NCBI RefSeq assembly: GCF_009914755.1
Contig: NC_060935.1
Reading direction: 5' to 3' (one strand)
Length of the DNA stretch: 64,000 nucleotides
Source of the DNA: the human T2T-CHM13v2.0 reference genome, Homo sapiens
Made by a program: the position numbers and the translations under genes. Below, one piece after another: positions 519 through 55,608 of this stretch (positions within the stretch are counted from its first letter, which is position 1; the number at the start of each line of letters is the position of its first letter). A model generated the notes under the pieces. The model did not search any database and was not told the origin of the DNA. It worked only from the letters and a program-made list of their open reading frames with translations.

Positions 519-729
519 CTTCAGCATACAAGGCCCTTCTATATATAGAATGAATTGCAAGAAGACACAGCCTGCGAGATAGAGACCAATCAAAAGGCTT
601 ATACAATTGTTCATAATTCACAAACTCACAGCAACACAAAACCACCTCTTGATTTCAAATGTTAAAGCTCTCCATCAAAATGGGTCAAGAGAGCAGGCAT
701 TAGGCAGAGCTGACAGCTCAGAGGGAAAT

Positions 730-1200
730 CGCTGCCACTCTGAACCACATCTACTCCTGTCTACCTGCAGGCCAGCAGGGACTTGAGCTTCAAAGGTGGC
801 TGCTTGCCAAGATGAGTTTATTTGAAGCTATGGCTCTGCAGCCTCAATCATTAGCCCTCTCCCCCAGACCTGATCCCTTCTATTCACCTAAGCTTTCCCT
901 CCACGCCCCAAGATAGGCCACTGGGAACCTCGGTAGACTGCTTCCTGAACAACAAAGTGCCTCATTAGCTACTTTTTAATGAGGTCACAGCCTGTGACTG
1001 CTCATTAATAGAGTGGTTAGTCAGCATCTCTAGGGGTAAAGGAGACTGAAGACAGAAGTCAGTGATAACAGAGCTCAGCCCAGGCGTAGCTGTGTTAGAG
1101 GGAGAAAGAACTTAGCAGAGACTCTTAGGCTTGTACTCTGATGTCTCCAGGGTCCCTTCCAGCTCTGAGACTATGATTCTGGAGAAGGACATCCAGAGGG
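730..1200. promoter_or_regulatory. Candidate OR enhancer/promoter, module A copy 1 (P3-promoter/P-element-like)
   Basis: Homeodomain sites TCATTAG 848-854, CTCATTAG 961-968, ACTTTTTAATGAG 971-983, CTCATTAA 1001-1008; O/E-like TCTCTAGGGG 1027-1036; 956-1008 identical to 32696-32748. Confidence 0.7.
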
Positions 1201-1616
1201 ACCAGGTCTTTGGTGGGAAGAAGTGACAACAGAGTCAAGTGATCCAAGGTTCAGAACAGCTATTGATCTAAAGATATTCTTGAAGAAATCGAATGCTCTT
1301 TAAGTTCTCTTGGATGCTTTTGTAAATGGAATTTAGCTCTTGAAACTTTTTATAATCTTGCCTTCTATAACCACAGATTCTCTCGGTATTCCTCCATGTG
1401 TCCAAGTACAGATTCTTTGTGTTATTTTCCAAGTCTTTTAAAATTGTATTTGTCCTTGGAGTTAATTCATTGGCCCTCTTCTCTCCTCCCTGTATACTGT
1501 CCCCTAGACATCCTGTCCATTCACGGGGTTCCAACACATCACTCCTGCAGAGATGAAACTTCGGCATTGACTCATATCTTATATCTCCCACCAGGATTAA
1601 TATTGGAGCCTCCTAA

Positions 1617-2064
1617 TGTTACTGAGCAAGGGCTCACTGCCCAAAGAGCATAGAAGCCAGTACCATGTCACTAGCTTTTGAGAAAAACAGCTTTATTGCA
1701 AGTCAACTGGCAAGGAAACAGAAGGAAATGCTCAAATCTGTCTCCCTGAGCTGGGGACTGGGGCAGGTTTCATAGACAGAGTAATGAGGTGTGAATGAGG
1801 TAATGCTGGGAGGCGTGATCTGACTGGATTATGCCACGGGATGATGTCAGGGCTCAATCTGATTGGATCATGTGTTGTCTGCTTGTTAATTCCGTCCCTG
1901 TTTCTTGGACTAAGCCATTAGGTTCCACTCACGATTGTGTACTTCGTTCATCTGGGCATGCTCAAATTACCTAACTTGCAACCTAGGGTCTATGGCAACT
2001 GAAAAATGACTCATTCCTTTGTTACATAAAAGTTGAACCAGATTGGTCTGGTTTCACGGTTACA
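1617..2064 (-). mobile_element. Solo LTR, ERV1/MER4-group-like
   Basis: TGTT...TACA termini, 4-bp TSD CTAA, reverse polyA signal (TTTATT near 1693); absent at the paralogous site near 33336. Confidence 0.8.
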
Positions 2065-5221: not shown

Positions 5222-5795
5222 TTACCTTTCTTTTTGACTTAATTTTTCACTGATTTAATTTTACATTCCATCCGAGAACATTTGATATACTGGGTCCTGA
5301 AGACAGAATTGTGATTGAGCTGCTGCTCTCTAGTTGGTGCTGGCCCAGTAGATAAGACAGAGAAGTAAACAGACAATCATAAAATGAAATTTCATTCGAT
5401 GTACTTCACTATGTGATAATGCCACACTTTGATCATTGCTATCATAAAAGTATTCAACCACTCTCCAAATTATTCCTTGGAAATACGTTTTTTTACTCAT
5501 CCTCTATGGTTAATTCGTATTTCCGTTGTCACTGCTACTGCCCTTGTTACTTATTCCTTTTTCTTATTCCCATCTTTCATTGGCATATTCATTTAATCAA
5601 TGAATATTTATTAATGTATACTAAAACCCAAGAGTATAACAATGAGCTAGGTACTGCCCTCTAGGAGCTCCTGCTCTTTCAGACAGACAAGTAAATCAAC
5701 AGCTATGGAACAAAAAGTGCCATGCAAAGGGCTTTACTATGTTATAATCTTATTCTGATATATACTATCATAGAAGTGTTCAACAAGTCTCCTAA

Positions 5796-6092
<297 letters not shown>

Positions 6093-8832: not shown

Positions 8833-9699
8833 ATAAAAATATACAATTTTTAATCAATCCCCTATTGATGGAATTAAGGTAATTTTCCCATTCTTTTGCT
8901 GTTAAAAATTGTAGTCCAATAAAAAACAATCATAATTTTTCCTCGCTCTAAAATTGTGATTCTGCCTGAATCACTATTTCTATCTCGTGCTGCTCACTAA
9001 CCATTTCAAAATCTTAGGGCTTCAATTCATTTGATCAACATTTGGACAAAAAATTATATCTCATACATTTTTCTTAACCATGACCAGCCTAAGATTAGCC
9101 AAAAAAAACCCCCAAATTTTATACTAAAGGAAGTCTACTTGATTGAGTCCTTTCTGTCAGCAGTTTCCTGTTTCTCATCTCAAATTTTGTTTATAATGAC
9201 TAGTCTTATGTACTTAATCATTCATTTGTTCAACACCTGAATTCTGCCATTCAAATGTATGCTTTATGAGCAGAGAGACTTCACATGTTTTGTTCATTTC
9301 TCTATCTCAGGGTCTAGAGCAATGCCTGGCATGTAGCAATTACTCAATACATATTTGTTAAATAAATGAAAAATTATTGCCATATGATAGGTTATAGTAA
9401 TATAATGTTAATGTGAGATTTTATATATATATGTTGTAACATAATATATTAATATGATTGCTAATATATGTCATCTCATCACACCAATCCTATAAAATAA
9501 GCCTTATGATCTTTGTCTAAGCCATATGGAAACTGAAACTCAGGAAGTTTGATAAATCACTAAATACCTAAAGTCAGTGAGTTTGAGAGCTGGTTTTAAA
9601 CTTAGATCACTAAGAATCCAAAAGTTTTGTGCTTTACTTTGCACAACCCTATATCCCTAGAGTATGGTTTTTCTTTTTGAATTCATCCTTTTGACATCC

Positions 9700-10340
9700 A
9701 ATATTTCTTTGGGCCCCAAAGAACAATAGATTCAAGAAAGGTCAGGTCCTCCTGAGGAAGGGAAAGAAGAGGAGCTTCGGTGAGCCCAGAAACATCAGGG
9801 AGGTGGCCGGTGGGGATAGAGGTGCCAGCCCTTCAGCTGTCCCTGAGGACAAAAGAGGCACGACTGGGAATAATTTTCTGAAAGCCAGGACAGGGAGCAT
9901 GGCCAACCCTCCTACTGTGCTCACTCACCTCTAACATGCCACTAACACACAAGGCAGCAGTGAGCAGGCTACAGCTTCAGCCATTATTAGCTCAGCTGGA
10001 ACAAGGAATAGGACTTCGCTGATTTCTCTTTTGGCTTTGCTGAAACAAAGAGAAAGCTCTTTGATTACATTTATGAAACATGTGCATGAAGGGCATGCAT
10101 GAAGCATGGAAGTCAGGCAGAGCTGAACAAGGCACATGTTCTTGTTCGACACGGGTAAGGCTTTTTGCCAAGGACCTAATTTACCAGGGGCCACTCTCCA
10201 GCTTCAGTTGCTCAACTGGACAAGGTTTGAGCAGGGTTTGTGGGATACTTAATTTTATTCCTCTGCTCACACTAGGAAGATCTTATCAGTTCCTCTCTTC
10301 TCTAGGTCTGTTTTCTTTGCCTGTATTATAAGGTAAGTGA
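9700..10340 (+). promoter_or_regulatory. Candidate OR10A5 promoter / 5' non-coding exon, module B copy 1
   Basis: O/E-like TCCCTGAGGA 9840-9849, homeodomain CCATTATTAG 9981-9990, donors GG|GTAAGG (10155) and AAG|GTAAGT (10333); homologous to 39370-39970. Confidence 0.55.
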
Positions 10341-10766
10341 GATCTAAGGCTGCAGAAGAAATAAATGACTCAGGATTTTTTTCCTAACTCTATCCTGTAA
10401 AGCTTTCCAGGTTAGAAAAATTTCAGTAGCCGGAGCTTCCATAGGACATACACCTCTTCCAGGTCTTGATTTTCCTCTGATTAATTCAGGGAAGACTTAC
10501 CTCACTAGAACATTCATGAGGCAGAGGACATCAGGAGACACTACTTCTTTAGGGAAGTTTTATGGTTACAGAAGGCCTAGGAGAGTGGGTTTCTATTCCA
10601 GGGACAGTTGCTCAGATGATTAGCAAATAGCTGCTCCTGGGGAAGTTCTAGAGGAACTGTCAAGGAGCCTGGGGGCTGGCTATGGGCCATCAGCTTCTTC
10701 AATGTCTCCCACACTGGAGACAGGTCACCAGCTCTTCTTCCCCAGTAGGTTCCAGAAGTTCTATAG

Positions 10767-11207
<441 letters not shown>

Positions 11208-19305: not shown

Positions 19306-22093
19306 GTACAAATAGTTATTTGAAAAACTTCTGACATTTATTTACTTCTGGACAAACAAATAAGTGGGAAGAGCTGTCAGTATAAACCTCTTTTAATTTT
19401 AGTCTTTATCATTAAAATTGCCTGAGTTCTTAGAACACAGAACAAACAAATTTGAATGCATTTGTGACAGTTTAATAATTTGTATGTCTCATTATGATCT
19501 TTTAATAGGAAGTTTTAAAGCCAAAGCATAATTTACTGCAAAGATAAATTAGAAAAGGCAAATAAACTTTTTAATAATATGTTATAGTGACCTGGACAAA
19601 ACTGATTATTAACTAGTAATACAATAATTAGAATATGCAACCGATTGAGAAATTAAATCCTGTGCTACATACTCGTAAGTATTTTGTCAGACATGATATA
19701 TATTTAAATGTTTCTATCAATTGCATTCCTTTTGCTGCATATATCAGTTTTTATTTAAAACAAGAAAACAATTCTCTTTCCTCCAGATTCTCATGTTAAT
19801 CAGTGCAAAATATTGCAATTTTAGTAAAAATTGTTTATTACAATGTTATTTTAGAACGGCTTATTCCTTAAACTATCGAAAATGTACTTAAAAAATCCAA
19901 ATTATGAGAATGATCAACTTCAATGGCTTCCTCGACATCCAGCTTGGCTTCTCCATGTCCTTCCTGTGACTTATCAAGAGAGGCCAGGGCCTCATTTTTG
20001 TCACTTGTAAAAGTTTCTCATGATATATCATCATCTTGAAAATTTAGACTTTTAATAGCTTATTTCATTTTTTCATTGTGTTCTCTTCCTAGCAGCTTTT
20101 TAATTTTCATATTCCTTTTGATTTTCTATGTAGAAAACATCCTTAATTTGTTCCTTGCTGATACTAGGAGTGTTTTTCAAGAGATTCAGAAAATCTCCAC
20201 CTGGTGTTCTCTTCAACTACTATTCATTATAAAGAGGCCACCATTTTGTTCTACTTCAGCAGTTTCCAGCAGAACAATTGCCTTTTGTTCCCAATAATCC
20301 TCACTGCTTGAGCCATCGGATCTTTCTTTGGTTCCTGTAACCTGAATAACATTTCATCAGCCACTTTCTCTTGGGAATCTTCCTCTGTGATCTCGTATCA
20401 ACCTTTATAGTTCATTTTTGGTTCTGGTCTGTTCCCTAGCCTGTCTTTGACAGGTCATTTCCTTTTGAGATGACCTTGCCCCTTTTCCTCTTCCTTTGAT
20501 CCCATTTTTTTGTTTGTTTGTTTTTGCCACCATGCATATATTCAGCTAGTTGTTTGTCTAGCCCTTTCGTATGCTCTAGAGATTCCCTCTTAAGTTTCTT
20601 AGCAAGCAAACAATCATAGGTCTCGGATTGTCTGCTTCTGTCAATAGTGCCCTCCATTCCCAAGATACCAAGTTCAGTGGCCACTGCATCTTAATTCTGT
20701 TCCTGCAGTACAGCACCCCATATGTTGTTAACCTTCTTTCCTCCAGAAACAGGTGGTTTCTGACTGCTCTGGCCAAACTGAAAAGACTCTGGTTTGGGAG
20801 GAGAGTTTACATATTTCCATCACTTCCACTTCCAAAGACAGCTATCATCATCTGAATCAGAAAAACTCTCTTCACTTGAATCCACACTTTCAACAACTCG
20901 GTAATGTGATACTGGTGCACATGCAGTCGCCCTGCTCTGGAAGGCCCTTATAAGCACTGTCCCCACCTAGCACTTTCCACACTTGCTGCAGCCTGTTGCT
21001 GGGTGTGACCATTATGTCGGAATCTGAGTCAGGTTGGAAAGCTGCCCATCTTCCATGTCGCTGGCCTCCAACACCATCTTCCCGTGGTGCCTATGCCTAT
21101 ATTTTAGCCAACATTATTTTCATCTCTGTTGCCTAGAAAGCCTTTAAAGATGATGTTATGTGTCCCTGTGCCCCTTTAAGGTACTATGTATTTTTGTATT
21201 TTGACTTTCATTGTGATGTGTTATAATTGATTATTTAAATATTTTATCTATTAAATTCTAAGCTTCAGTGAATAATCATTGTATCATCAGTGCTGCCATA
21301 GAAATTGAATAAATACAGACTTTCCTTTTATATCATTTAAGATTCTATCTCGTTTCATAACTTTTTATCCATGAATGTTTTCCTTTGAAACTTCACTCTA
21401 ATGTTTCTTATATTTTTTATAGTTTTTTTTTGTGGGAGTCTGTTTTATTTTTTCCAATTTTCCTGTTCTTGAAAGGGAAGTAGTCAGAATCTCCTTGGAC
21501 ACAGTCACTTTCCACAGAATTGTAGTACAATACTCCTCTCCGATCTTAATTTTGAGAGTCAGTGGATTATGCAGGTACTAAGAATCAGTTGCCAATTATA
21601 GATATGCTGGACCAAAGAGGAAACTGCTAACATTGTTTCCCACAGTCTGATTTGGCAAGAAAGAATAAGTATTACGTGATTTGAAGTGGTCTACAATTCT
21701 TACGGTGAGTGAGGGGGAAAGTGCATTAAAACAACCACACCCTATAAACATTCTCACTCATCCATTCCCCTCTATTATTTCTACTTTGAATAACTTCAAA
21801 ATAAAATACGATACAAGATCAGATTTGTTTTAGTAAATAGGCTAACAAGATATAAAATGGAACGTAAAAGAGAGGAGAAAGGTGACCTATTGCTCATTTC
21901 ACTGCTTAGGTTCTGACCACGTTTTATTGTGTCTTTATTCTTAGCCAACACAAGACCCTTCCTCTTCCAGCTGAGGTGCTGACCTTGCCTCTATCCCTGA
22001 CATTAAGAGAAAATCTGAAAAACAGATTGAGAATCTGACTTCCAATCAAGAATCTCTCTCCAGGACCACAGCTGGGGATTTATGCCCATACTT

Positions 22094-23047
22094 ATGGCTA
22101 TAGGAAACTGGACAGAAATAAGTGAATTTATCCTCATGAGCTTCTCTTCCCTACCTACTGAAATACAGTCATTGCTCTTCCTGACATTTCTAACTATCTA
22201 TTTGGTTACTCTGAAGGGAAACAGCCTCATCATTCTGGTTACCCTAGCTGACCCCATGCTACACAGCCCCATGTACTTCTTCCTCAGAAACTTATCTTTC
22301 CTGGAGATTGGCTTCAACCTAGTCATTGTGCCCAAAATGCTGGGGACCCTGCTTGCCCAGGACACAACCATCTCCTTCCTTGGCTGTGCCACTCAGATGT
22401 ATTTCTTCTTCTTCTTTGGGGTAGCTGAATGCTTCCTCCTGGCTACCATGGCATATGACCGCTATGTGGCCATCTGCAGTCCCTTGCACTACCCAGTCAT
22501 CATGAACCAAAGGACACGGGCCAAACTGGCTGCTGCTTCCTGGTTCCCAGGCTTTCCTGTAGCTACTGTGCAGACCACATGGCTCTTCAGTTTTCCATTC
22601 TGTGGCACCAACAAGGTGAACCACTTCTTCTGTGACAGCCCGCCTGTGCTGAAGCTGGTCTGTGCAGACACAGCACTGTTTGAGATCTACGCCATCGTCG
22701 GAACCATTCTGGTGGTCATGATCCCCTGCTTGCTGATCTTGTGTTCCTATACTCGCATTGCTGCTGCTATCCTCAAGATCCCATCAGCTAAAGGGAAGCA
22801 TAAAGCCTTCTCTACGTGCTCCTCACACCTCCTTGTTGTCTCTCTTTTCTATATATCTTCTAGCCTCACCTACTTCTGGCCTAAATCAAATAATTCTCCT
22901 GAGAGCAAGAAGTTGTTATCATTATCCTACACTGTTGTGACTCCCATGTTGAACCCCATTATCTACAGCTTGAGAAATAGCGAGGTGAAGAATGCCCTCA
23001 GCAGGACCTTCCACAAGGTCCTAGCCCTCAGAAACTGTATCCCATAG
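22094..23047 (+). CDS. OR10A5: Olfactory receptor 10A5 (class II OR, 317 aa)
   Basis: Intronless 7TM ORF with N5 sequon NWT, LHSPMYFFL, MAYDRYVAIC, HFFCD, KAFSTCSSH, PMLNPIIYSLRN; an in-frame ATG at 22082 would add MPIL. Confidence 0.95.
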   Translation: MAIGNWTEISEFILMSFSSLPTEIQSLLFLTFLTIYLVTLKGNSLIILVTLADPMLHSPMYFFLRNLSFLEIGFNLVIVPKMLGTLLAQDTTISFLGCATQMYFFFFFGVAECFLLATMAYDRYVAICSPLHYPVIMNQRTRAKLAAASWFPGFPVATVQTTWLFSFPFCGTNKVNHFFCDSPPVLKLVCADTALFEIYAIVGTILVVMIPCLLILCSYTRIAAAILKIPSAKGKHKAFSTCSSHLLVVSLFYISSSLTYFWPKSNNSPESKKLLSLSYTVVTPMLNPIIYSLRNSEVKNALSRTFHKVLALRNCIP

Positions 23048-23982
23048 ACCTTAGGAAGTAAGGCTAAATTCTATTGAATGACAATTAGTTTCATGTTTGG
23101 GACACCTCTCTGCCTCTCTTCACATATCTGTTGGAATGAAACCCAGCTATTGAAATGGCTATTGGAAAGCTCTGTGGAGAGAAGAGAGCCCAGTGTTGGT
23201 GTAAACCTGTCATTATCATCTGCTAAATTTCTTTACCTGCCCATCGTAGACTTACTCTGTTTTTCTTATTGGTGCAATTGGCACTTTGAGACTTCTGTGG
23301 CCAAACCATTCGAGATATTTACTTTGCTAATGAGCACAAATGTGACATATATTGTGGACAATCTGAAACTACTTGTAATATGACTTTGGGGATACACAAT
23401 GGGCAAGACAATGAGAAGTATCAAATGTCATCTTGGCCATCATCTTGGTTTGGAAAATTCTGACACCATTCAGTAGAAAACCCTATAATACTTCTAGTAC
23501 ATAATTCTTGCTCTTCATTTCATTTTACATGCCCCTAAGGAAGTGTTGGCTTTTATGTTTGTTGATATTTAGCATGGATAGAGAAAATAGGATCACTAAT
23601 CCCCATACATATTCCTTTATAAGCCCAATAGCCTTAAAAGACTCCTTCCTTAGGCTATTCTTCCTAGGTAGAATAAGCTATTTCCAATTGTCTCTTGCAA
23701 ATTCAGTTTCAGGTTCTTAATCCTTGTTAAAGTAATTTCAAAATTTCACAAACATAATTTCAATCATAATGCTGCTTTTTTCAAGGCTTACAGTGGATCT
23801 TAGCTGACTCCTAATATTTGCTTAGTGCCTTTAAATTTTAAGTTTTTATATATTGTTGATATGAAAATACAAAATATCATAAAGCACAATCATTGCCATC
23901 AGAAGTTAATAATTTAGTCAACAATGGGGGATTTGTAAAAGCAAATTCATTTTACAATTAAGCAAAGTAAGATTCAAGTTCT

Positions 23983-32124: not shown

Positions 32125-32469
32125 GGAGGATTAGTTTGATGAGGTAAGTAAGCATCAGATCTTGAAAGTCCTCTATGCTGAAGTGTTTGAATGCTATCTT
32201 GTGAACTATGTAAATCAATTTAAGCGTTTTCAGCATGAAAAAACAATCAGATATGTATTTTGGAAAAATTACTTTGGCAGTTGTATGGCAAATGGGCCAT
32301 AAGGGGACACAGGCTATAAGACAGAGACCAGAGACTTCTGTAAATGAGCAGTTAAGAGATATGAGACCAAAACTCAGTGCAAGGAAACCCTCTTCTTAAT
32401 CTTCAGAAATTGAAGTCCCTATCAAAATAGGACAGCAGAGCAGACATGCTACCAGCTCAGAGGAAAATC

Positions 32470-32950
32470 ACTGCTGTTCTGGACCACATCTACTCCCGTC
32501 TACCTGCAGGCCAGCAGGACTTGAGCTGCAAAGGTGGCTGCTTGCCAAGATGAGTTTATTTGAAGCTATGGCTCTGCAGCCTGAGTCATTAGTCCTCCCT
32601 CCCATATCTGATCCTTTCTATTCACTTAAGCTTTCCTTCCAGGCCCCAAGATAGACCACTGGGAACCTCAGTAGACTGTGCTCCCTGAACAACAGAGTGC
32701 CTCATTAGCTACTTTTTAATGAGGTCACAGCCTGTGACTGCTCATTAACAGACTGGCTAGTCAGCATCCCCAGGGGTAGGGGAGACTGAAGACAGAAGTC
32801 AGTGATTACAGAGCCTAAGTGTAGCTGTGTTAGAGGGAGAAGGAACTTAGCAGAGACTCTGAGGCTTTTACTCTGAGGTCTCCAGGGTCACTTCCAGCTC
32901 TCAGAGACTATGATTCTGGAGAACATATTGAGGGACCAGGGCCTTTTTGG
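32470..32950. promoter_or_regulatory. Candidate OR enhancer, module A copy 2 (P-element-like), between OR10A5 and OR10A2
   Basis: TCATTAG 32586-32592, CTCATTAG 32701-32708, ACTTTTTAATGAG 32711-32723, CTCATTAA 32741-32748, O/E site TCCCCAGGGG 32767-32776. Confidence 0.72.
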
Positions 32951-35399
32951 GAGGAAGTGACAACAGAGTCAAGTGATCCCAGGCTTGTAACAGCTGTTGG
33001 TCTAGAGAGATTGTTTAGGAAGTCAAATGCTCTTCAAGTTCTCTTGGATGCTTACGGAAACGGAATATTGCTTTTGCAACCTTTTGTCATCTTGCCTTCC
33101 ATAACCATGGATTTTCTTGCTATTCCCTGTACATGATTAAGTGCAGATTGTTTGGATTATTTTCCAAGTATTTTTAAACTGATCCTGGGAGTTAATTTAT
33201 TGGCCCTCTTCTATACTCCCTGTTTACTGTCTCCTAGACATCCCGTTCATTCACAGGATTCCAACCTATCACTCCTCTGGAGATGAAACTTGGGCATCGA
33301 CTTATATCTCCCACTAGGATTAGTGCTACAGCCTCCTAATTGTATTCCCTGCCTCCAGTCATGCTGCAGATTTACACATATACCTCATTCCCATTCAGCC
33401 CTTAGTCTCCCCAGAGTTCTTTCTAAACACACGTGGCAATCTGTCTTAATCATGTTTAAATTCCTTATGAATCACCCTCATAATCAGAATGAAACCATCG
33501 TACTTAGCATGTCATACAAACCTTATATTCCAGTTCTAGTTTCTCTTTCAAATTTCAGTTCTTACCATACTCCCATCCATACATTTGAATGGGGTATGAT
33601 GAAAATAGTGCATCATACTGAACTATTTTCTTTTCCCTTATACCATGCATTTTTAATTTCTCTAAATGTGCTTTTTTGTTTCTCTCAAAAATTTGGAGTC
33701 TAAAAAGCCTTAGTTCAAATTGTGTGTCTGCTACTTACCAGATATGAAAATCACTCTGTTTCTCTCCTATTTCCTCTTCTGTGAATTGAGTGATAATATC
33801 TTGTGGATTTAATGCAAAGATGAAATGAGAATAATGAAACCTACTGTGAAGATATTAAGAGGCCAGCCATTCTGTGACAGCAGAGGTAACAGGTGGGCTA
33901 ATCAAATGATATTAGCCAACAACTAACACCTGTGGAACTTTATGACTTTTATCTATTCTTTGTTATTTTTTACATTTAAAGTAATATATCAGTTATGTAA
34001 AATTCCCAATAGGTATTTGCTATTATTCATAACACGAGTAAATTATTAGGTTCCCTCCTTTTCCCAGTGAACAGAGTAAAGAGAGGAAGTAATATGTTAA
34101 ATATGAGCTACATGTTTGTCAATAAAGTGTTATTTACTCCTCACAGGTATTAACAAGAAGTATATAATATGGCCAAGTAACAAGTAATGGGTGTCAAAGT
34201 TTGGGTTTGAATCTAAGTCTATCTGATTCCAAAATATCATGTTTAAGATAACATATTTAATCTCTAAAATATAAAGAAAGAATCTAAGAGTCTAGAAAGA
34301 TATTTGGAAGTAAAGGAATGTAATATGGACAGCCAAGAGGCTTCAGGAGGGTTATAAGAGAGAGGAAAAAAACCTTTGAGGCCAATAGACATAAATGGAT
34401 GACATATCACCATATTGTAACCTATTTCTTTGGGGTAATTGAAAGAAATGAATAGTTATTTTTTATTCTCTAATGCAAGCTCTTTATTCTCTAAATCAAG
34501 CTACTTGGAAAAGAGTACGTCTTCAACAGAAGGTAGACATTATTATTAAATCTTTATATCTTTACTCAATTCCTCTGCCTGCTATTCTTGCCTATCACCC
34601 CATACTCACCATACCAAGTTAATCCCTACATATTATTTAAGATTCAACTCTAGTGTTTTCTCTCCTATGAATCTCTCCCTGATTCCTCTAGGCAAGTCTG
34701 AGTTTGCTCTCCTTTGTACACATGTGATATCTTGTATATATAATTGTTAAGCATTGAAGACATTGAAATTGTCTCTTCATAAGCATAGAGGATACAGTAA
34801 GAGCAGTTCATCATTCTTGTTTGTATTTCTGACACCTAGTCCAGTGCCTGGCATATAGTAAGTACTCAGTAAATGACTGAAGAAATGCATAGTCCCCAAG
34901 TTGTTTCTCTAGCCTTGGCCTGTTCCATTCTCACTGAAAAGTGAAAATTGTCTCTGAGACATTTCTGCCTAGGTGTCAAGGCACATGTCAGACAACAACA
35001 AGCTCTCAGACAAAATTTTCTCCCATTCTCTAAATCATGAAAGAAAAATGTCTTATTACATATTTATTGCTTTTACCCCACTTTTCATTGACATATTCTT
35101 TCATTTAATCAGTGAATATTCATACTGAATCCTGAAGGTACAACAATGAACAAGGTGCATCCCTCTAAGAGCTCCTGGCTCCTTAAGTGAGAAAACGTAA
35201 ATACACAGATACAGACAAAAAGACAGTGCCATGGAAAAGGCTTTACTGTATTATAATTTTGCATTGATAAGTGCTATCAAAGAAGTGTTCGATCAGTCTC
35301 CTAATCCTATTAATTCCTCCTTGGCAACATCTTCTTACTCAAACCTTGGTTAAATACCCATTTTCACTGCCACTGTCATGAGTCTAGCCAGTGGATCTT

Positions 35400-38650: not shown

Positions 38651-39369
38651 CTAGCTTTTAAAAGCATGGATCAATTTAATATCATTTTATCTCTATCTTG
38701 TATTGTTCACTAGCTATTTCAAAATTAGGTAGCCTCAATTCATCTGAACACCCAAGAGACTGGGGATGATGTCTCCTACATTTTCCTTAACAATGACCAG
38801 AATAGAACCAAATAACAACAGCAAAAATTCTTACGCCAAAGTCTACATGTCTGCGTCCCACTTTCCGTGCAGTTTCCTATTTCTTCCTTCTGGATTCAAT
38901 AACAGCTATATTAGTCATATGTTCTTAGTTGTTATCTTATAATTTATCTAATTGTAGTTCACATTTCCCCATTAAAATGTAAGCTTTATGAATACAGGAA
39001 CCAAACCTGTTTTTGTTTTACTTCCATAACCTAATGCTTAGGAGAGTATTTGACATTTAGTAGATACTTAATGAACAATTATTCAGCGTGCAATAGGTTT
39101 AACTAATATAAGCCATTTAATTTCATCATAACACTAACTCTGTAAAATAAGAACATTTGTTGTCTTTAAGAAATGTGGAAATCAAAGCTCAGCGAGTTTA
39201 ACAAAATTGCTAAGCATTATGAGCCAGAGTTCCAGTGCTGAGATTAAATTTAGGTTGCTCTGACTTCAAATTCTTATAGTGCTTCTCTACACAATGCTGC
39301 TTCCCCTAGCCTGGAGTTTGGTTTTTCTTTCTTGAATTTTATCCTGTTGGCATCTGAAATTCATTATAT

Positions 39370-39970
39370 TCTCAAAGGATGGTAGATTCAAACAAGACCA
39401 GGTCCCCTGAGGAAAGGAAGGAAAAGCCTATAAACAGCTGGGAAAAAATACAGGTCTCATCCCTTCGACTAGCCCCAAGAACAAAAGAGGCACAGGTGGG
39501 AACAACTCTCCCAAAACCAGGACTGGGAGCATGGCCAAACTTCATAGTGAGCTTACTTGCCTCTGACACACAAGGCAGCAGTGAGCTGGCTACAGCTCCA
39601 GCCATTAATAGCTCAGCCAGGACAGGGAATAAGACTTCCCTGGTTCTTCTTTTGGCTTTGCTGAAACAGAAATAGAGCTGTTATATTACATGCATGAAGG
39701 ACATGCATGAAGCATGGATGTCAGCCAGAGTTGAACAAGGCAGATGTTCCTGTTGGACACAGGTAAGCCTTTTTTTTTTTTTTTTTTTTTTTTTTCCACC
39801 AAGGACTGAATCTACCAGAGGCCACTCTCCAAGTTCAGTTACTCAGCTGCACAAAATATGATCAGAGTTTGGATACCTAATTCTATTCTTATGTTCACAC
39901 TGGGAGATCTCATCAGTTCCTCTCTCCTTGGGCATCAGTTTACTCTATGTCATAAGAAAAGTGAGATCTG
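39370..39970 (+). promoter_or_regulatory. Candidate OR10A2 promoter / 5' non-coding exon, module B copy 2
   Basis: O/E-like TCCCCTGAGGA 39403-39413, homeodomain CCATTAATAG 39602-39611, donor CAG|GTAAGC (39763). Confidence 0.6.
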
Positions 39971-40271
39971 GGCTCACAAAAAGACTGATATTACCCAGGC
40001 TTTTTCCAATTCTGTCCTCTAAAGTTTTCTGAGTCAGGAAGCTTCCAGGCCCTACAACCTTCACAGGACATATACCCCCTTCAGGTCTTGATTTTCGTCT
40101 AAGTAACACAAAAAAGACTTGCCTCAGTGGAACATTTATGAGATGGAGAACATCAGGGCAAACTACTACTTTACAACAATTCTACAGTCAGAGAAGGCCT
40201 AGAAGAGTGGGTTCCAGGTCCTGGGACAGTCAGGTGATTAGCAAAGGGATGTTCCTAGGGAAGTTCTAGAG

Positions 40272-40489
40272 CAAGTTTGTCCAACCTGTGGCCCATGGGC
40301 CACATGCGGCCCAAGATGGCTTTGAATGTGGCCCAACATAAATTCATAAACTTTGTTAAAACATTATAAGATTTTTTTCCTTTCTTTTTTGCTTATAAGC
40401 TATCATTAGTGTTAGTGCATTTTATGCGTGACCAAGAAATTTTTCTACTTCCAATGTGGCCAGGGAAGCCAAAAGATTGGACACCCCTG
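40272..40489 (-). mobile_element. MER30 (hAT-Charlie MITE)
   Basis: CAAGTTTGTCCAA...TTGGACACCCCTG TIRs; 8-bp TSD TTCTAGAG; empty site at 10646-10653. Confidence 0.92.
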
Positions 40490-41304
40490 TTCTAGAGGAA
40501 CTGGCAAGAACGCTGTGGGCTGGCCATGAGCTGCCACCTTCTGCAATGCCTCTCCCACACTGGAGACGGGGCACTAGCTTTTCTTCCCCAGTAGTTTTCA
40601 GAAGTTCTGTGGAAATCCCAGCAAGTGTTTCTGCCCCTCCTTCTCCCCAGTCTTCTCCGCCAGCACCACATACAACACATCTGTCATGAGGCTTCTAGTT
40701 AAAGTGCGGTTCTAACAAAAAAAAAAAGAACAGTCATTGAGAAAAAAAAATTCTAATAGTGAATAAAAACTCCAAGAAGAATGAACTTTGTAGAACTCAT
40801 GTAATCCTTTATACAATCAGCTGTCCAAAAACATGTATGAATAGCTTACTTGGTAAAAACACTGGGCTTCTTCTTATAAAGATGACTAAGACAGTTTATA
40901 CTATGGAGAAGTTTAAAGAGTGAGATATATATTGGTAGTAGAAATATCTGAATAATTAAAAACATTTTTAAAGGATAGAGGAAAATAGAGAAGATGACTA
41001 ATCCTATCTGGAAGTATCACATGACAGACAGAGCTGAGTTTTGAGGATCTGAAGGAGTCAGCCAGACAGAGGAGGGGATGTGCAGGCAGAAATGATGTCA
41101 CATGAAAAGGCAGAGGCAAGCAAAAAGAACTCTGTTCAGTAAATAGTAAGAAGCTCAGCAGTGAAGCAGAAGAAGGAGAGATGGATGTGGGAGACCAAAG
41201 ATGACATTTCGGGTGTAGCTTAAGTTCATTTCATATGGCTTGTTGAAAACCCCAATTTTGTAATTATAAATTTTTCTGTTTTAAGTTCAGGCTCTGCCAT
41301 TTAT

Positions 41305-44458: not shown

Positions 44459-46120
44459 TACAGTGAAAGAGTTTCTAGTTGAGATGATCTGTCTTTTCAT
44501 CATTGGTTCTTTTATTATTTTTTAAACTTACATTTGTTTTTCTGAAACTGAGCTAAAAACTGTAGACATTGCTTCATTTAATGTTTAGCATTTCTGAGAA
44601 ATCTTAGATCAGTTTGATTATAATTCTTTTATAAGAATGGTGTTTTTTCCTTCATAGATTCTCTGGAATTTTAAACATAACCTTGAAGTTCAAATTATTC
44701 ACCAAGACCTGACTAATATTTAGCCTCTTTTAAATAAGTTGTCTGCTGCTTGAAAATGGATTGTGCGTAAAGACGGAGGGTAATTATAGATATACCACCT
44801 AGTCTTCTTGATCCGAGGCCTACAGATTTTGATCCCTTCTCTATCCCATTCTATCAACAATGTCAGAGTGATCCTTCTAAGTAGCATTATGACAATGTCA
44901 CTCTGCAGCTTCAAATATTCAGGTGAATCTCCTCATCTATAAAATAAAGTCCAAAATTCTCAGCATGTAATATAAGTCTATTAATGTAATATATCCAAAA
45001 CACTGACCATATCTTTGTTTATCTTTTACTTTGTGTCAGCTCTGGTTTTTACTGTTCCTAATAAAGTTTTTAATTTTTATTATTAATTTTTTTAACCACA
45101 GTTTGCTAACCACATTCATTTCTTTTTTTATTTATCCCAGCCTCTCAATTTCATTTTCCAGCTTAATATCACCATTTCTCCACTAGACTTCAATATTCTA
45201 GATTATGAATACAATAAGAAGAGCCTCTAGATAACCAACTGCAAATTAGAAACCAGTAATACAAAATTGGGATTCAGTTGTGTCTAGGAAATCTCCTAAA
45301 CATCTTAATGCTGATGATGTTGGTTCTCGTGCTTATCTTTGTCTGTCTTCACTGTGATTTTGCAGAAATGCCAATTCTAATTCTCCTACAAATTAATAAG
45401 TTAGTCATCAGATAAGGCATGACAGTCCAACAAAGCATGATTTAGTAAAAATCTGAAGGGTTTTGTAATCCAATAGATGTGGTTTGGATTCAAGATCTTC
45501 CATGTGATTTGTGTTTCTTAAATTATCTGGGATCAGTTTCCTCATGTATAAACCAGAGATATAAAAGAACAAAAACATGCATATGTAAATGGTCCTCAAT
45601 ACATGCTAACCTTTCACCCTCCTCTCAAATTCTAGCCAGTCAAGAAAGGTTCATGAAGAGTAGAAAACATATTATATGCATTCTTCATGATAGTTATAAA
45701 TATATTTCTAAAGTTTTGATAAATTTAAATGTATGTGTTCTTTTACGAGATTATAAACACTTGGTGTGTTTCATAAGTTTAAGTGTTTTCAGAAACATCA
45801 CTTTCTCCCAAAATGTATCCTTTGATGGACCCTTCAGAAACTTGTGATTCTGACTTTGCATGCCCTTTCTGAATAACTTAAGGTGTGAACAGAAATATCA
45901 GCTCCTCTAGAAGCTGATTCAGGCCCATCTCAGAGATTAGGCTCTGGCTACTATTTATTGTGTTTTATTCTTAGACAACCCAAGGCACTTCCTCTGCCTG
46001 AGGTGCTGACCTTGCCTCTTTCCCTGACAGTAAGAACGAGTCTGAAAAACAAATTGAGAATCTGACTTCCAATCAATAATCTTTCTCCATGACCACAGTT
46101 GGGGACTTCTGCCCATACTT

Positions 46121-47074
46121 ATGGCTACAGGAAACTGGACAAGAATAAGTGAGTTTATCCTCATGAGCTTCTCTTCCCTGCCTACTGAAATACAGTCATT
46201 ACTCTTTCTGACATTTCTAACCATCTACCTGGTCACCCTGATGGGAAACTGCCTCATCATTCTGGTTACCCTAGCTGACCCCATGCTACGCAGCCCCATG
46301 TACTTCTTCCTCAGAAACTTATCTTTCCTGGAGATTGGCTTCAACCTAGTCATTGTGCCCAAAATGCTGGGGACCCTGCTTGCCCAGGACACAACCATCT
46401 CCTTCCTTGGCTGTGCCACTCAGATGTATTTCTTCTTCTTCTTTGGAGTGGCTGAATGCTTCCTCCTGGCTACCATGGCATATGACCGCTATGTGGCCAT
46501 CTGCAGTCCCTTGCACTACCCAGTCATCATGAACCAAAGGACTCGTGCCAAACTGGCTGCTGCCTCCTGGTTCCCAGGCTTTCCTGTAGCTACTGTGCAG
46601 ACCACATGGCTCTTCAGTTTTCCATTCTGTGGCACCAACAAGGTGAACCACTTCTTCTGTGACAGCCCACCTGTGCTGAGGCTGGTCTGTGCAGACACAG
46701 CACTGTTTGAGATCTACGCCATCGTCGGAACCATTCTGGTGGTCATGATCCCCTGCTTGCTGATCTTGTGTTCCTATACTCGCATTGCTGCTGCCATCCT
46801 CAAGATCCCATCAGCTAAAGGGAAGAATAAAGCCTTTTCTACATGTTCCTCACACCTCCTTGTTGTCTCTCTTTTCTATATATCATTAAGCCTCACCTAC
46901 TTCCGGCCTAAATCAAATAATTCACCTGAGGGCACGAAGCTGCTATCATTGTCCTACACTGTTATGACTCCCATGTTGAACCCCATTATCTACAGCCTGA
47001 GAAATAACGAGGTGAAGAATGCCCTCAGCAGGACGGTCTCTAAGGCCCTAGCCCTCAGAAACTGTATCCCATAG
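46121..47074 (+). CDS. OR10A2: Olfactory receptor 10A2 (317-aa ORF; 303 aa from second ATG at 46163)
   Basis: OR motifs as in OR10A5; 16 aa differences from OR10A5 by manual comparison; lies between OR10A5 and OR10A4. Confidence 0.93.
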   Translation: MATGNWTRISEFILMSFSSLPTEIQSLLFLTFLTIYLVTLMGNCLIILVTLADPMLRSPMYFFLRNLSFLEIGFNLVIVPKMLGTLLAQDTTISFLGCATQMYFFFFFGVAECFLLATMAYDRYVAICSPLHYPVIMNQRTRAKLAAASWFPGFPVATVQTTWLFSFPFCGTNKVNHFFCDSPPVLRLVCADTALFEIYAIVGTILVVMIPCLLILCSYTRIAAAILKIPSAKGKNKAFSTCSSHLLVVSLFYISLSLTYFRPKSNNSPEGTKLLSLSYTVMTPMLNPIIYSLRNNEVKNALSRTVSKALALRNCIP

Positions 47075-47353
47075 ACCTTAGGAAGTAAGGCTACATTTTA
47101 CTGGATGAGAAACAATCAGTCCCAGATTTGAGATTCCTCTCTGCATCTTTCCACATCTCCAATAAGATGAAGTCCTGTTGCTGAAATGGCTTTTGGAAAG
47201 CTGAGTGGAGAGAAAGGAGCAGAGAAGTAGTTTCGACCTAGCACCACCAACTATGAAAACTCCTCTGCCTGCCCATTGTAGACTTACATTGTTTTCCTTG
47301 TTTCAACTGGTATGACAGCACTTCTGTGGCCAACTATTTCCAGGTGTTATATT

Positions 47354-53974: not shown

Positions 53975-54147
53975 TTGGCTTAGATGGAAACTGAAGGGGT
54001 AAAATGTAAGTACACACACAAAAAATAGAAAAATGAATTCCTCAAGTGGATTTTGTGTTTCTACTCTTTCCAGGTGACACGGTATGCCTACTGAAATTTT
54101 TTACTTTCTACTAAGACCTATTTCTGAAAGAAAGAACATGAGTAATG

Positions 54148-55608
54148 TGCTACCTGACTTCAAACTATACTACAAGGCTACAGTAACCAAAACAGCATGG
54201 TACTGGTACAAAAACAGACATATAGACCAATGGAACACAACAGAGCCCTCAGAAATAATACCACACATCTACAACCATATGATCTTTCACAAACCTGACA
54301 AAAACAAGAAATGGGGAAAGGATTCCCTATTTAATAAATGGTGCTGGGAAATCTGGCTAGCCATATGTAGAAAGCTGAAACTGGATCCCTTCCTTATACC
54401 TTATACAAAAATTAATTCAAGATGGATTAAAGACTTACATGTTAGACCTAAAACCATAAAAACCCTAGAAGAAAACCTAGGCAATACCATTCAGGACATA
54501 GGCATGGGCAAGGACTTCATGTCTAAAACACCAAAAGCAATGGCAACAAAAGCCAAAATTGACAAATGGGATCTAATTAAACTAAAGAGCTTCTGCACAG
54601 CTAAAGAAACTACCATCAGAGTGAACAGGCAACCTACAGAATGAAAGAAAATTTTTGCAATCTACTCATCTGACAAAGGGCTAATATCCAGAATCTACAA
54701 AGAACTCAAAAAAATTTACAAGAAAAAAACAAACAACCCCATCAACAAGTGGGCGAAGGATATGAACAGACACTTCTCAAAAGAAGACATTTATGCAGCC
54801 AACAGACACATGAAAAAATGCTCATCATCACTGGCCATCAGAGAAACGCAAATCAAAACCACAATGAGATACCATCTCACACCAGTTAGAATGGTGATCA
54901 TTAAAAAGTCAGGAAACAACAGGTGCTGGAGAGGGTGTGGAGAAACAGGAACACTTTTACACTGTTGGTGGGACTGAAAACTAGTTCAACCATTGTGGAA
55001 GTCAGTGTGGCAATTCCTCAGGGATCTAGAACCAGAAATACCATTTGACCCAGCCATCCCATTACTGGGTATATACCCAAAGGATTATAATAATACCAAA
55101 GGATTATAAATCATGCTGCTGTAAAGACACATGCACACGTACATTTATTGCAGCACTATTCACAATAGCAAGACTTGGAACCAACCCAAATGTCCAACAA
55201 TGATAGACTGGATTAAGAAAATGTGGCACATATACACCATGGAATACTATGCAGCCATAAAAAATGATGAGTTCATGTCCTTTGCAGGGACATGGATGAA
55301 GCTGGAAACCATCATTCTCAGCAAACTATCACAAGGACAAAAAACCAAACACCGCTTGTTCTCACTCAGAGGTGGGAATTGAACAATGAGAACACATGGA
55401 CACAGGAAGGGGAACATCACACACTGGGGCCTGTTGTGGGGTGGGGGGAGGGGAGAGGGATAGCATTAGGAGATATACCTAATGTAAATGACGAGTTAAT
55501 GGGTGCAGCACACCAACTAGGCACATGTATACATACGTAACAAACCTGCACGTTGTGCACATGTACCCTAGAACTTGAAGTATAATAAAATATATATATA
55601 TATGTATA
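54148..55608 (+). mobile_element. 5'-truncated L1PA (about 1.45 kb)
   Basis: ORF2 C-terminal [19 protein letters not shown]..., 3'UTR, AATAAA 55584-55589; TSD AAAGAAAGAACATGAGTAATG at 54127 and 55609. Confidence 0.95.

What the first reader, a model, noticed from the sequence alone, without database searches (positions are those of the whole stretch)
730..1200. Duplicated candidate human OR-choice element (copy 1) carrying the H/P/P3 homeodomain motif
Seen: this non-repeat block recurs at 32470-32950 (core offset 31740). It is visibly more similar than neighbouring duplicated DNA and has a 53-bp identical core (956-1008) containing TACTTTTTAATGAG, with three further TCATTA sites and an O/E-like site nearby. 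Known: AACTTTTTAATGA is the Lhx2/Emx2-type 13-mer shared by the mouse H element, P element and P3 promoter, and mouse P3/P4/P2 (Olfr713/714/17) correspond to OR10A5/A2/A4. The human core matches 12 of 13 bases. Inference: this copy, 21 kb upstream of OR10A5, is the human counterpart of the P3 promoter or a Greek-island-type enhancer. I cannot verify whether it has been functionally described in human.
Basis: partly seen in the sequence, partly recalled or inferred. Interest (0 to 1): 0.85.

Follow-up and report, generated by a model that had tools for sequence, protein, structure and literature searches.

The report
Duplicated homeodomain-site block near OR10A genes
Two nearly identical 520-base stretches upstream of two neighbouring human smell-receptor genes carry the same cluster of homeodomain-protein binding sites as a known mouse receptor-choice element, which makes them plausible but untested human counterparts of it.

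Summary
Window 728-1250 recurs at 32467-32984 with 90.7% identity, against 65-81% for the other non-coding duplicated DNA. The 53-bp run 956-1008 is exact, and a second exact run of 54 bp lies at 791-844. The 53-bp core holds three TAATGA sites; the central one is TACTTTTTAATGA, 12 of 13 bases of the published mouse H/P/P3-promoter motif. The block heads a collinear OR10A5/OR10A2 tandem duplication. Copy 2 lies 6.7 kb upstream of an ordinary-looking OR10A2 promoter. Locus, duplicated state and three-site layout match what papers say of the mouse P element and the similar Olfr713 (P3) promoter. No mouse sequence could be aligned. The 13-mer occurs 975 times in the genome. The raised similarity is not clean evidence of constraint: the OR10A5/OR10A2 coding regions were homogenised too (dS 0.13 against flanks 0.28-0.36), and a third, truncated copy gives a star-like tree in the part of the block it covers (728-824), which points to gene conversion. 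Two exact cores within a roughly 10%-diverged block (0.07% of shuffles) still argue for constraint on the site clusters. Verdict: a probable human P/P3-type regulatory module pair, a new member of a known kind, with function unproven.

The parts
728..1250 (+). Copy 1 of the high-identity block, at the 5' end of the OR10A5 duplication unit. GC is 50% against 38% for the window.
   Evidence: 90.7% identical to 32467-32984. The sharp left edge lies near 728.
791..844 (+). Core 1: a 54-bp run identical in both copies. It holds an NFI-like palindrome TGGCTGCTTGCCAA (797-810) and a T-rich GTTTATTTG (816-824).
   Evidence: The NFI consensus is recalled. The pattern occurs only at the two copies in the window, but the shuffle expectation is 0.61, so it is not significant on its own.
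848..853 (-). Homeodomain site TAATGA (read as TCATTA on the + strand), followed by a pyrimidine-rich run kept as pyrimidines in both copies.
956..1008 (+). Core 2: a 53-bp run identical in both copies, with three TAATGA sites (962-967 on the - strand, 977-982 on the + strand, 1002-1007 on the - strand).
970..982 (+). Extended homeodomain site TACTTTTTAATGA, 12 of 13 bases of the published mouse H/P/P3-promoter 13-mer. Thirteen contiguous bases (971-983) equal part of the published 21-bp H-derived multimer unit.
   Evidence: Published sequences are in PMC7804114, PMC6744719 and PMC8213819.
960..1008 (.). Nested inverted repeats: CCTCATTA / TAATGAGG (960-967 / 977-984), TTAATGAG / CTCATTAA (976-983 / 1001-1008), and GTCACAG / CTGTGAC (984-990 / 992-998). 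An AGGTCA half-site lies at 982-987.
1027..1036 (+). O/E-like site, degenerate in copy 1 (TCTCTAGGGG), 19 bp after the last homeodomain site.
32467..32984 (+). Copy 2 of the block, between OR10A5 and OR10A2, 6.7 kb upstream of OR10A2's RefSeq start site (39468).
32529..32582 (+). Core 1 in copy 2, with the NFI-like palindrome at 32535-32548.
32696..32748 (+). Core 2 in copy 2. Homeodomain sites at 32702, 32717 and 32742; the 13-mer-like site at 32710-32722.
32767..32776 (+). O/E-like palindrome TCCCCAGGGG, stronger than its copy-1 counterpart.
39361..39468 (+). Context: OR10A2's proximal promoter. TCATTA at 39361, O/E-like TCCCCTGAGG at 39403, TATAAA at 39429, RefSeq start site at 39468.
   Evidence: and the RefSeq annotation supplied with the finding.
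9830..10155 (+). Context: the OR10A5-unit paralogue of OR10A2 exon 1. The splice donor is retained, but the TATA box and homeodomain site of the OR10A2 promoter are absent.

Best explanation
The two blocks are paralogous cis-regulatory modules heading the OR10A5 and OR10A2 tandem-duplication units. They are most likely the human counterparts of the mouse Olfr713 (P3) promoter / P element pair.

Each module carries a 53-bp core with three TAATGA homeodomain sites, the middle one extended. An NFI-like palindrome lies about 150 bp upstream of the core, and an O/E-like site lies 19 bp downstream.

Inferred mechanism, by analogy with mouse H and P: in olfactory sensory neurons, LIM/paired-type homeodomain proteins (Lhx2, Emx2) occupy the TAATGA cluster, helped by Ebf and possibly NFI. 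This opens the block within otherwise silent OR chromatin and raises the probability that a nearby OR gene (OR10A5, OR10A2, perhaps OR10A4) is chosen in cis. It does not raise transcript level per cell.

Copy 2 sits 6.7 kb upstream of an ordinary OR10A2 promoter, so I take it to act as a distal element like P. Copy 1 is its equivalent for OR10A5.

Shown: the sequence anatomy, the duplication, the locus, and the motif match to published mouse strings. Inferred: homology to mouse P/P3, protein binding, and any activity in humans. The pair's overall 90% identity owes much to gene conversion. Only the two exact cores give evidence of constraint.
For: 1. The anatomy is as described.

2. The triple exact TAATGA cluster is unique to the two copies in the window, among 62 sites in total.

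3. The motif is 12 of 13 bases of the string shared by H, P and the Olfr713 promoter.

4. The layout matches the published description of P: three extended homeodomain sites, with the central one identical to H's (PMC4721658, Fig. 4 legend). H likewise has three TAATGA sites within 92 bases (bioRxiv 2022.05.05.489571).

5. Mouse P is 'remarkably similar' to the nearby Olfr713 promoter (PMC6744719), and the human block is also a pair.

6. The locus is orthologous per the table in PMC4133803.

7. The non-coding flanks of the duplication have K 0.22-0.48. With recalled human-lineage neutral rates, this fits a duplication about as old as the primate-rodent split.

8. Conservation within the block is uneven. 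The alignment has 527 columns, 61 of them not identical, yet it contains exact runs of 54 and 53 bp. Of 100,000 shuffles, 0.07% gave two runs of 53 or more. The chance that a pre-specified 53-bp stretch has no difference at the block's own rate is about 0.0015.

9. Copy 2 lies upstream of a separate TATA / O/E / homeodomain promoter.
Against: 2. The 13-mer is common genome-wide: 975 matches. The paired inverted-site pattern gives 70 genome matches, and only 5 of the 70 lie within 100 kb of an OR gene. Two of those are this pair. The other three are one recurring sequence in OR7E-pseudogene duplications. The layout therefore does not mark other human OR clusters.

3. Gene conversion can explain the raised identity. 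OR10A5 and OR10A2 have dS 0.13 against a 3' flank K of 0.36. In the three-way comparison with the truncated third copy, copy-2-specific differences fall from 20 of 76 ungapped columns in the left flank to 2 of 96 in block part 728-824. Copy-1-specific differences (2, then 5) and fragment-specific differences (7, then 7) do not fall. This is a star-like tree, not slower evolution on all functional branches.

4. There is no juxtaposed homeodomain-O/E composite site, and the copy-1 O/E-like site is degenerate.

5. No RefSeq functional element is annotated here. The pipeline of PMC6744719 reported only one human candidate, on chr7.

6. Mouse P itself shows little Lhx2/Ebf/Ldb1 ChIP enrichment in bulk mature neurons (PMC8213819).
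Confidence: 0.5

Rival explanations
1. The blocks have no present function. They are similar because a stretch of about 0.5 kb was homogenised by non-allelic gene conversion, or re-duplicated, in the same period as the OR10A5/OR10A2 coding regions. The homeodomain cluster is then an inherited relic of an ancestral element, or a chance feature, that has simply not had time to decay.
For: Block K is 0.10, CDS dS is 0.13, and the fragment-to-copy-1 divergence is about 12-13%. These all point to one period. The left boundary near 728 is sharp: identity rises from 0.655 to about 0.9. The three-way tree in 728-824 is star-like, with copy 1's own branch no shorter than in the flank. The motif is common in the genome.
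Against: Mismatches laid down since a single conversion should be spread evenly. Two exact runs of 53 or more appeared in only 0.07% of 100,000 shuffles, and one of them coincides exactly with the triple homeodomain cluster, which was specified in advance from mouse work. The converted tracts are the coding region and this block, not the roughly 20 kb between them. OR10A5, OR10A2 and OR10A4 are intact genes that need regulation. Several short, more recent conversion tracts could, however, mimic the two exact runs.
Confidence: 0.25
2. The blocks are upstream alternative promoters with first non-coding exons of OR10A5 and OR10A2, that is, true P3-promoter counterparts. Transcription would start 100-200 bp downstream of the homeodomain cluster and splice over long introns to the coding exon.
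For: Papers place the 13-mer in the mouse P3 promoter. OR genes have one to six alternatively spliced 5' non-coding exons (PMC7055050). The block is a GC-richer island, 50% against 38%, and the review PMC12547500 notes a GC peak at OR start sites. The OR10A5-unit paralogue of OR10A2 exon 1 has lost its TATA box and homeodomain site, so OR10A5 may need another start site.
Against: No transcript is annotated here. There is no TATA box. Between 1000 and 1640, no aligned GT reaches 7 of 9 matches to the recalled donor consensus; the two sites shared by both copies reach only 6 of 9. For OR10A5 the start site would be 21 kb from the coding sequence, beyond the human range quoted for split-gene introns, which that paper found no different in length from the intron preceding the CDS (1.4-7.6 kb; mouse up to 22.6 kb; PMC7055050). 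OR10A2 already has a canonical promoter at 39361-39468.
Confidence: 0.2
3. The block is a small coding exon or a structured RNA gene.
For: A 34-codon ORF (812-916) is open in both copies, and inverted repeats lie in the core.
Against: Of the ORF's 35 codons (stop included), 9 differ: 8 non-synonymous and 1 synonymous. The Rfam scan of 500-1800 gave only 2 weak matches (E 0.48 and 0.83), both outside the block and far below the gathering scores. The GTCACAG / CTGTGAC arms are separated by a single base, which cannot form a hairpin loop.
Confidence: 0.03

Closest known systems
Mouse P element (class II OR choice enhancer in the P2/Olfr17 cluster, chr7)
   Same: It lies in the orthologous OR cluster. 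It has three homeodomain sites, the central one being the extended AACTTTTTAATGA-type site, with O/E-like sites nearby. It exists as one of a pair with a promoter-like paralogue (PMC4721658, PMC6744719, PMC5638857, PMC7804114; passages seen).
   Different: The human site differs at the first base of the 13-mer. No sequence alignment was made. Function, a regulated gene set (10 of 24 genes in mouse, per PMC5638857) and chromatin state are unknown in humans. My recollection that mouse P lies between P3 and P4 could not be checked, because Bozza 2009 and Khan 2011 are not held.
Mouse Olfr713 (P3) promoter
   Same: It carries the same 13-mer and is highly similar to P. OR10A5 is listed as the Olfr713 orthologue (PMC4133803), and copy 1 lies upstream of OR10A5.
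   Different: Copy 1 is 21 kb from the OR10A5 coding sequence. It has no annotated start site, no TATA box and no conserved strong donor. An exon-1 paralogue lies between it and the gene.
Mouse H element and its 21-bp core (x21)
   Same: Three TAATGA sites in a short span. Thirteen contiguous bases (ACTTTTTAATGAG) equal part of the published 21-mer. No proximal O/E site lies next to that homeodomain site, as stated for x21 (bioRxiv 2022.05.05.489571; PMC8213819).
   Different: It is a different locus (the mouse chr14 MOR28 cluster). The bases flanking the 13 shared ones differ: 8 of the 21 positions, by my own reading.
Greek Islands (Lhx2/Ebf co-bound OR enhancers with a composite motif)
   Same: [quoted passage not shown]
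   Different: The nearest O/E-like site is 19 bp from a homeodomain site, not juxtaposed. The published composite matrix is not printed in the text, so it could not be scored. Binding data are not available here.
J element (class I OR enhancer)
   Same: It has a similar extended homeodomain site (AAACTTTTAATGA, HD1), multiple homeodomain sites and an O/E-like site (PMC7804114).
   Different: It sits in the class I cluster, carries a class-I-specific AAACTTTTC motif, and acts over about 3 Mb.

Membership tests
Human counterpart of the mouse P element / Olfr713 (P3) promoter pair | Lies in the cluster orthologous to mouse P2/P3/P4 | tested here: met
   The window holds OR10A5, OR10A2 and OR10A4 (RefSeq). 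The table in PMC4133803 pairs OR10A5 with Olfr713/P3 and OR10A4 with Olfr17/P2. No printed source was seen for the OR10A2-Olfr714 pairing.
Human counterpart of the mouse P element / Olfr713 (P3) promoter pair | Carries the 13-bp extended homeodomain site AACTTTTTAATGA | tested here: inconclusive
   12 of 13 bases (TACTTTTTAATGA) in both copies. No exact match lies in the block.
Human counterpart of the mouse P element / Olfr713 (P3) promoter pair | Three homeodomain sites with the extended one central | tested here: met
   Sites at 962, 977 and 1002, with the 13-mer-like site at 970-982. The description of P comes from the Fig. 4 legend of PMC4721658.
Human counterpart of the mouse P element / Olfr713 (P3) promoter pair | Exists as two similar copies within the cluster | tested here: met
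   Copies at 728-1250 and 32467-32984, 90.7% identical. The mouse statement is in PMC6744719.
Human counterpart of the mouse P element / Olfr713 (P3) promoter pair | Aligns to the mouse P element / P3 promoter beyond the motif | not testable with these tools
   No mouse genome or P sequence is reachable. Bozza 2009, Vassalli 2011, Lane 2001 and Khan 2011 are not held.
Human counterpart of the mouse P element / Olfr713 (P3) promoter pair | Changes the probability of choice of linked OR genes | not testable with these tools
   This needs deletion or reporter experiments.
Greek Island enhancer | Composite motif: an Lhx2 site juxtaposed to an Ebf site. An insertion of 2 bp already impairs it (PMC5608512). 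| tested here: inconclusive
   No strict O/E site lies next to a homeodomain site, and the nearest O/E-like site is 19 bp away. A pyrimidine run follows the site at 848. The matrix itself was not available to score.
Greek Island enhancer | Lhx2/Ebf co-binding and accessibility in mature olfactory neurons | not testable with these tools
   No chromatin data are available here. Mouse P itself is weakly bound in bulk data (PMC8213819).
OR gene proximal promoter | A start site with O/E and homeodomain sites within a few hundred bp upstream, followed by a spliced non-coding first exon | tested here: not met
   No transcript is annotated at either copy. No conserved donor reaches 7 of 9 consensus matches in 1000-1640. 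By contrast, OR10A2 exon 1 at 39468 meets this feature. Olfactory-tissue start-site data were not available, so this rests on annotation and sequence only.

The most novel reading that the evidence does not exclude
The promoter-like module was copied along with its gene before primates and rodents split. Both lineages then kept the pair, P3 promoter plus P in mouse and copy 1 plus copy 2 in human. In humans, selection together with recurrent gene conversion holds a 53-bp triple-homeodomain core identical in both copies. On this reading the locus has two interchangeable choice elements, and it is a natural example of an OR enhancer born from a promoter by tandem duplication.
Probability: 0.25. 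Interest if true: 0.55.

Novelty: new member of a known kind. Interest (0 to 1): 0.38.

Why it matters
OR choice elements have been demonstrated almost only in mouse. A compact human candidate with a defined 53-bp core, present in two copies next to three intact OR genes, would give a concrete target for human olfactory-epithelium chromatin and transcript data and for reporter tests. The copy pair would also bear on how OR enhancers arise from promoters by duplication. The gain is incremental. The mouse elements and their motif are well described, and the human counterpart is probably visible in existing whole-genome alignments.

Tried and rejected
1. Papers that could settle the position and sequence of mouse P and the P3 start site were not held: Bozza 2009, Lane 2001, Vassalli 2011, Plessy 2012, Khan 2011 and Markenscoff-Papadimitriou 2014.

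2. I searched for a printed P-element 19-mer. It was not found in bioRxiv 2022.05.05.489571 or bioRxiv 2026.09.23.753647.

3. I tried a genome-wide search with the published 21-bp H-derived unit, allowing up to 3 mismatches, as a positive control for a human H counterpart. It gave 250 matches against 321 for the reversed control. Only the first 100 were listed, and I did not check them against OR genes. The result is uninformative.

4. I tested whether the inverted-site-plus-extended-site layout marks other human OR clusters. It does not. Of 70 matches, 5 lie within 100 kb of one of 842 OR genes or pseudogenes. Two are this pair and three are one recurring sequence near OR7E pseudogenes.

5. 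An RNA family was rejected.

6. A coding exon was rejected.

7. An interspersed repeat was rejected.

8. A first exon with a conserved donor was not supported.

9. The NFI-like palindrome is not significant as independent evidence. It has 2 matches that are really one event, the expectation is 0.61, and 14 of 100 shuffles reached 2.

10. Generic TAATKR clusters are common. One search listed twelve 60-bp windows with 3 or more such sites, this pair among them, and the list was cut off there. Only the exact-TAATGA triple is distinctive.

11. I looked for print claims about a human element here. The search for OR10A5 / OR10A2 / enhancer found 22 papers, 19 listed, and none concerned olfactory regulation judging by title and abstract start. 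The search for Olfr713 found 3 papers. The search for Greek Islands / human / olfactory receptor / liftOver led to PMC10088727, which lifts 35 mouse islands to human and keeps 15. Supplementary file 1 of PMC5608512 and the gene models of PMC7055050 are likewise unseen, and could show a P counterpart or an upstream OR10A5/OR10A2 exon.

Full report
OBSERVATION. The block exists as described. Window 956-1008 and 32696-32748 are identical over 53 bp, at offset 31740, and hold TACTTTTTAATGAG at 970-983 / 32710-32723. A second exact run of 54 bp lies at 791-844 = 32529-32582. Over 728-1250 against 32467-32984 the identity is 0.907 and K2P is 0.10, on 514 aligned sites. The left flank 540-727 gives 0.655 / 0.48. 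The stretch 1251-1600 gives 0.81 / 0.22. Other collinear non-coding pieces of the same duplication give 0.72-0.81 / 0.22-0.37. No masked repeat of 100 bp or more overlaps either copy. A whole-genome search returned 3 of 3 scored matches: the block itself, copy 2 at 87%, and a short fragment.

ANATOMY. Core 2 (956-1008) holds three exact TAATGA sites, at 962 (- strand), 977 (+ strand) and 1002 (- strand). The middle one is extended to TACTTTTTAATGA. A fourth site lies at 848. The core is built of nested inverted repeats: CCTCATTA / TAATGAGG, TTAATGAG / CTCATTAA, and GTCACAG / CTGTGAC one base apart. Core 1 (791-844) holds TGGCTGCTTGCCAA, which fits the NFI palindrome as I recall it. An O/E-like site follows core 2 after 19 bp. 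It reads TCCCCAGGGG in copy 2 and the weaker TCTCTAGGGG in copy 1. The block has 50% G+C in a 38% window.

CONTEXT. The window holds a collinear tandem duplication. The pieces 622-1617, 2065-2379, 5543-5797, 9656-10871 and 21892-23304 match 32370-33340, 33336-33666, 35052-35306, 39310-40706 and 45923-47333. The block therefore sits about 190 bp inside the 5' edge of each unit. Copy 2 is 6.7 kb upstream of OR10A2's RefSeq exon 1 (39468-39762). That exon has TATAAA at 39429, an O/E-like site at 39403 and TCATTA at 39361, which is an ordinary OR promoter layout. The OR10A5-unit paralogue of that exon keeps its splice donor but lacks the TATA box and the homeodomain site. Copy 1 is 21.1 kb upstream of the OR10A5 coding sequence.

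WHY THE COPIES ARE SO ALIKE. That inference is not safe, for two reasons.

First, the OR10A5 and OR10A2 coding regions are 95.4% identical, with dN 0.023 and dS 0.133. Their 3' flank has K 0.36. Parts of this duplication have therefore been homogenised, and the block's K of 0.10 is close to that dS.

Second, a truncated third copy at chr11:6875469-6875649 matches window 644-824 at 87% and ends before the homeodomain core. It allows a three-way comparison. In the left flank 644-727 (84 columns) there are 45 invariant columns, 20 copy-2-specific, 2 copy-1-specific, 7 fragment-specific, 2 where all three differ, and 8 gapped. In block part 728-824 (97 columns) there are 82 invariant, 2 copy-2-specific, 5 copy-1-specific, 7 fragment-specific and 1 gapped. 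The copy-2 class collapses from 20 of 76 to 2 of 96 (Fisher p = 2.4e-6). The other two branches do not shorten. That is a star-like tree, as expected if copies 1 and 2 were homogenised at about the time the fragment arose. It is not what lasting constraint on both functional copies would give. The fragment reaches only to window 824, so this tree tests only that 5' part of the block.

Against a purely neutral history, the differences inside the block are uneven. The alignment has 527 columns, 61 of them not identical, yet it contains exact runs of 54 and 53 bp. Of 100,000 shuffles, 6.2% gave one run of 53 or more and 0.07% gave two. A stretch fixed in advance, the triple homeodomain cluster, has about a 0.0015 chance of no change in 53 bp at the block's own rate. 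My reading is that conversion explains the block's overall identity, and that the two cores show constraint since then. Several short, recent conversion tracts remain a possible alternative.

MOTIF STATISTICS. In the window, AACTTTTTAATGA with at most 1 mismatch matches 4 times against a mean of 0.56 in 100 shuffles, and 1 of 100 shuffles reached 4. The other two matches are at 19565 and at 54898 (- strand). Three exact TAATGA sites within 100 bp occur only at the two copies, among 62 sites. From that density I estimate, by my own arithmetic, about 0.06 such clusters per window. Genome-wide the motif is not rare: ACTTTTTAATGAG occurs 975 times against 347 for the reversed control. The inverted-site-plus-extended-site pattern occurs 70 times against 35 for the control. 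Only 5 of the 70 lie within 100 kb of one of 842 OR genes or pseudogenes. Two are this pair and three are one repeated sequence near OR7E pseudogenes. The case therefore rests on the coincidence of motif, layout, locus and exact conservation, not on the motif alone.

COMPARISON WITH THE LITERATURE (passages seen, not whole papers).
- PMC7804114 (Discussion) and PMC5638857 (Fig. 6 legend) give AACTTTTTAATGA as the extended homeodomain site of H, P and the P3 promoter.
[quoted passage not shown] It says mouse P is remarkably similar to the nearby Olfr713 promoter. Its pipeline found only one human candidate, on chr7.
- The Fig. 4 legend of PMC4721658 describes three extended homeodomain sites in P, the central one identical to H's.
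- bioRxiv 2022.05.05.489571 notes three TAATGA sites within 92 bases in H, and no proximal O/E site next to the multimerised 21-mer.
- PMC8213819 prints that 21-mer and reports weak Lhx2/Ebf/Ldb1 signal at P in bulk neurons.
- PMC4133803 lists OR10A5 with Olfr713/P3 and OR10A4 with Olfr17/P2.
- PMC5608512 defines the composite motif of Greek Islands and its strict spacing.

The human pair matches P and the P3 promoter in locus, paired state, number and order of sites, and 12 of 13 motif bases. It does not show a juxtaposed composite site.

ALTERNATIVES. A coding exon is unlikely. The 34-codon ORF at 812-916 differs at 9 of its 35 codons (stop included), 8 of them non-synonymous. No RNA family matches the block. 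A promoter with a first exon cannot be excluded, but it has no support from annotation or from conserved donors. For OR10A5 it would also need an unusually long 5' region (PMC7055050).

DATING (inference from recalled neutral rates, not from a call). Flank K of about 0.22-0.48 fits a duplication near the primate-rodent split. This would make the human pair orthologous to the mouse pair. K of about 0.10-0.13 for the block, the coding regions and the fragment fits a later homogenisation within primates.

VERDICT. The most likely reading (0.5) is a pair of P/P3-type homeodomain-cluster regulatory modules that raise the choice probability of nearby OR genes in cis. Copy 2 would act as a distal element, and copy 1 would be its equivalent for OR10A5. 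The rivals are a converted but inert relic (0.25), upstream alternative promoters (0.2), and an exon or RNA (0.03). It is a new member of a known kind and of moderate to low surprise.

LIMITS. No other species' sequence, no chromatin or transcript data, and no supplementary tables were available. The key primary papers on P and P3 were not held.

Noticed in passing
chr11:6875469-6875649 (6.4-6.5 kb left of the window start; L003/L011): A solitary 181-bp truncated copy of window 644-824, 87% identical. It ends inside core 1, so it lacks the homeodomain core. In the left flank it groups with copy 1, not copy 2.
   Followed up: yes
window 22094-23047 and 46163-47074: The OR10A5 and OR10A2 coding regions are 95.4% identical, with dS 0.13, while the 3' flank has K 0.36. 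Differences cluster at the two ends of the coding region. This looks like gene conversion of the coding regions.
   Followed up: partly
window 9700-10155 versus 39360-39765: The OR10A5-unit paralogue of OR10A2's non-coding exon 1 keeps the GT donor and much of the exon. It lacks the TATAAA and TCATTA of the OR10A2 promoter. RefSeq gives OR10A5 no 5' exon at all.
   Followed up: partly
window 54898-54910 (- strand): GACTTTTTAATGA, another 12-of-13 match to the mouse 13-mer, lies inside a masked repeat (54118-55615) just downstream of OR10A4. AACTTTTTAATAA lies at 19565-19577.
   Followed up: no
window 1618-2064: About 450 bp present in the OR10A5 unit with no counterpart in the OR10A2 unit, between two collinear homologous pieces. 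It is not soft-masked. Whether it is an insertion or a deletion was not determined.
   Followed up: no
G000 chr4:9408359, chr8:7090780, chr11:71747255, chr12:8187345: The same 25-bp string with an inverted TCATTA ... CTTTTTAATGA pair recurs at four places. Three of them lie within 100 kb of OR7E pseudogenes, so it is probably one segmental-duplication family.
   Followed up: no
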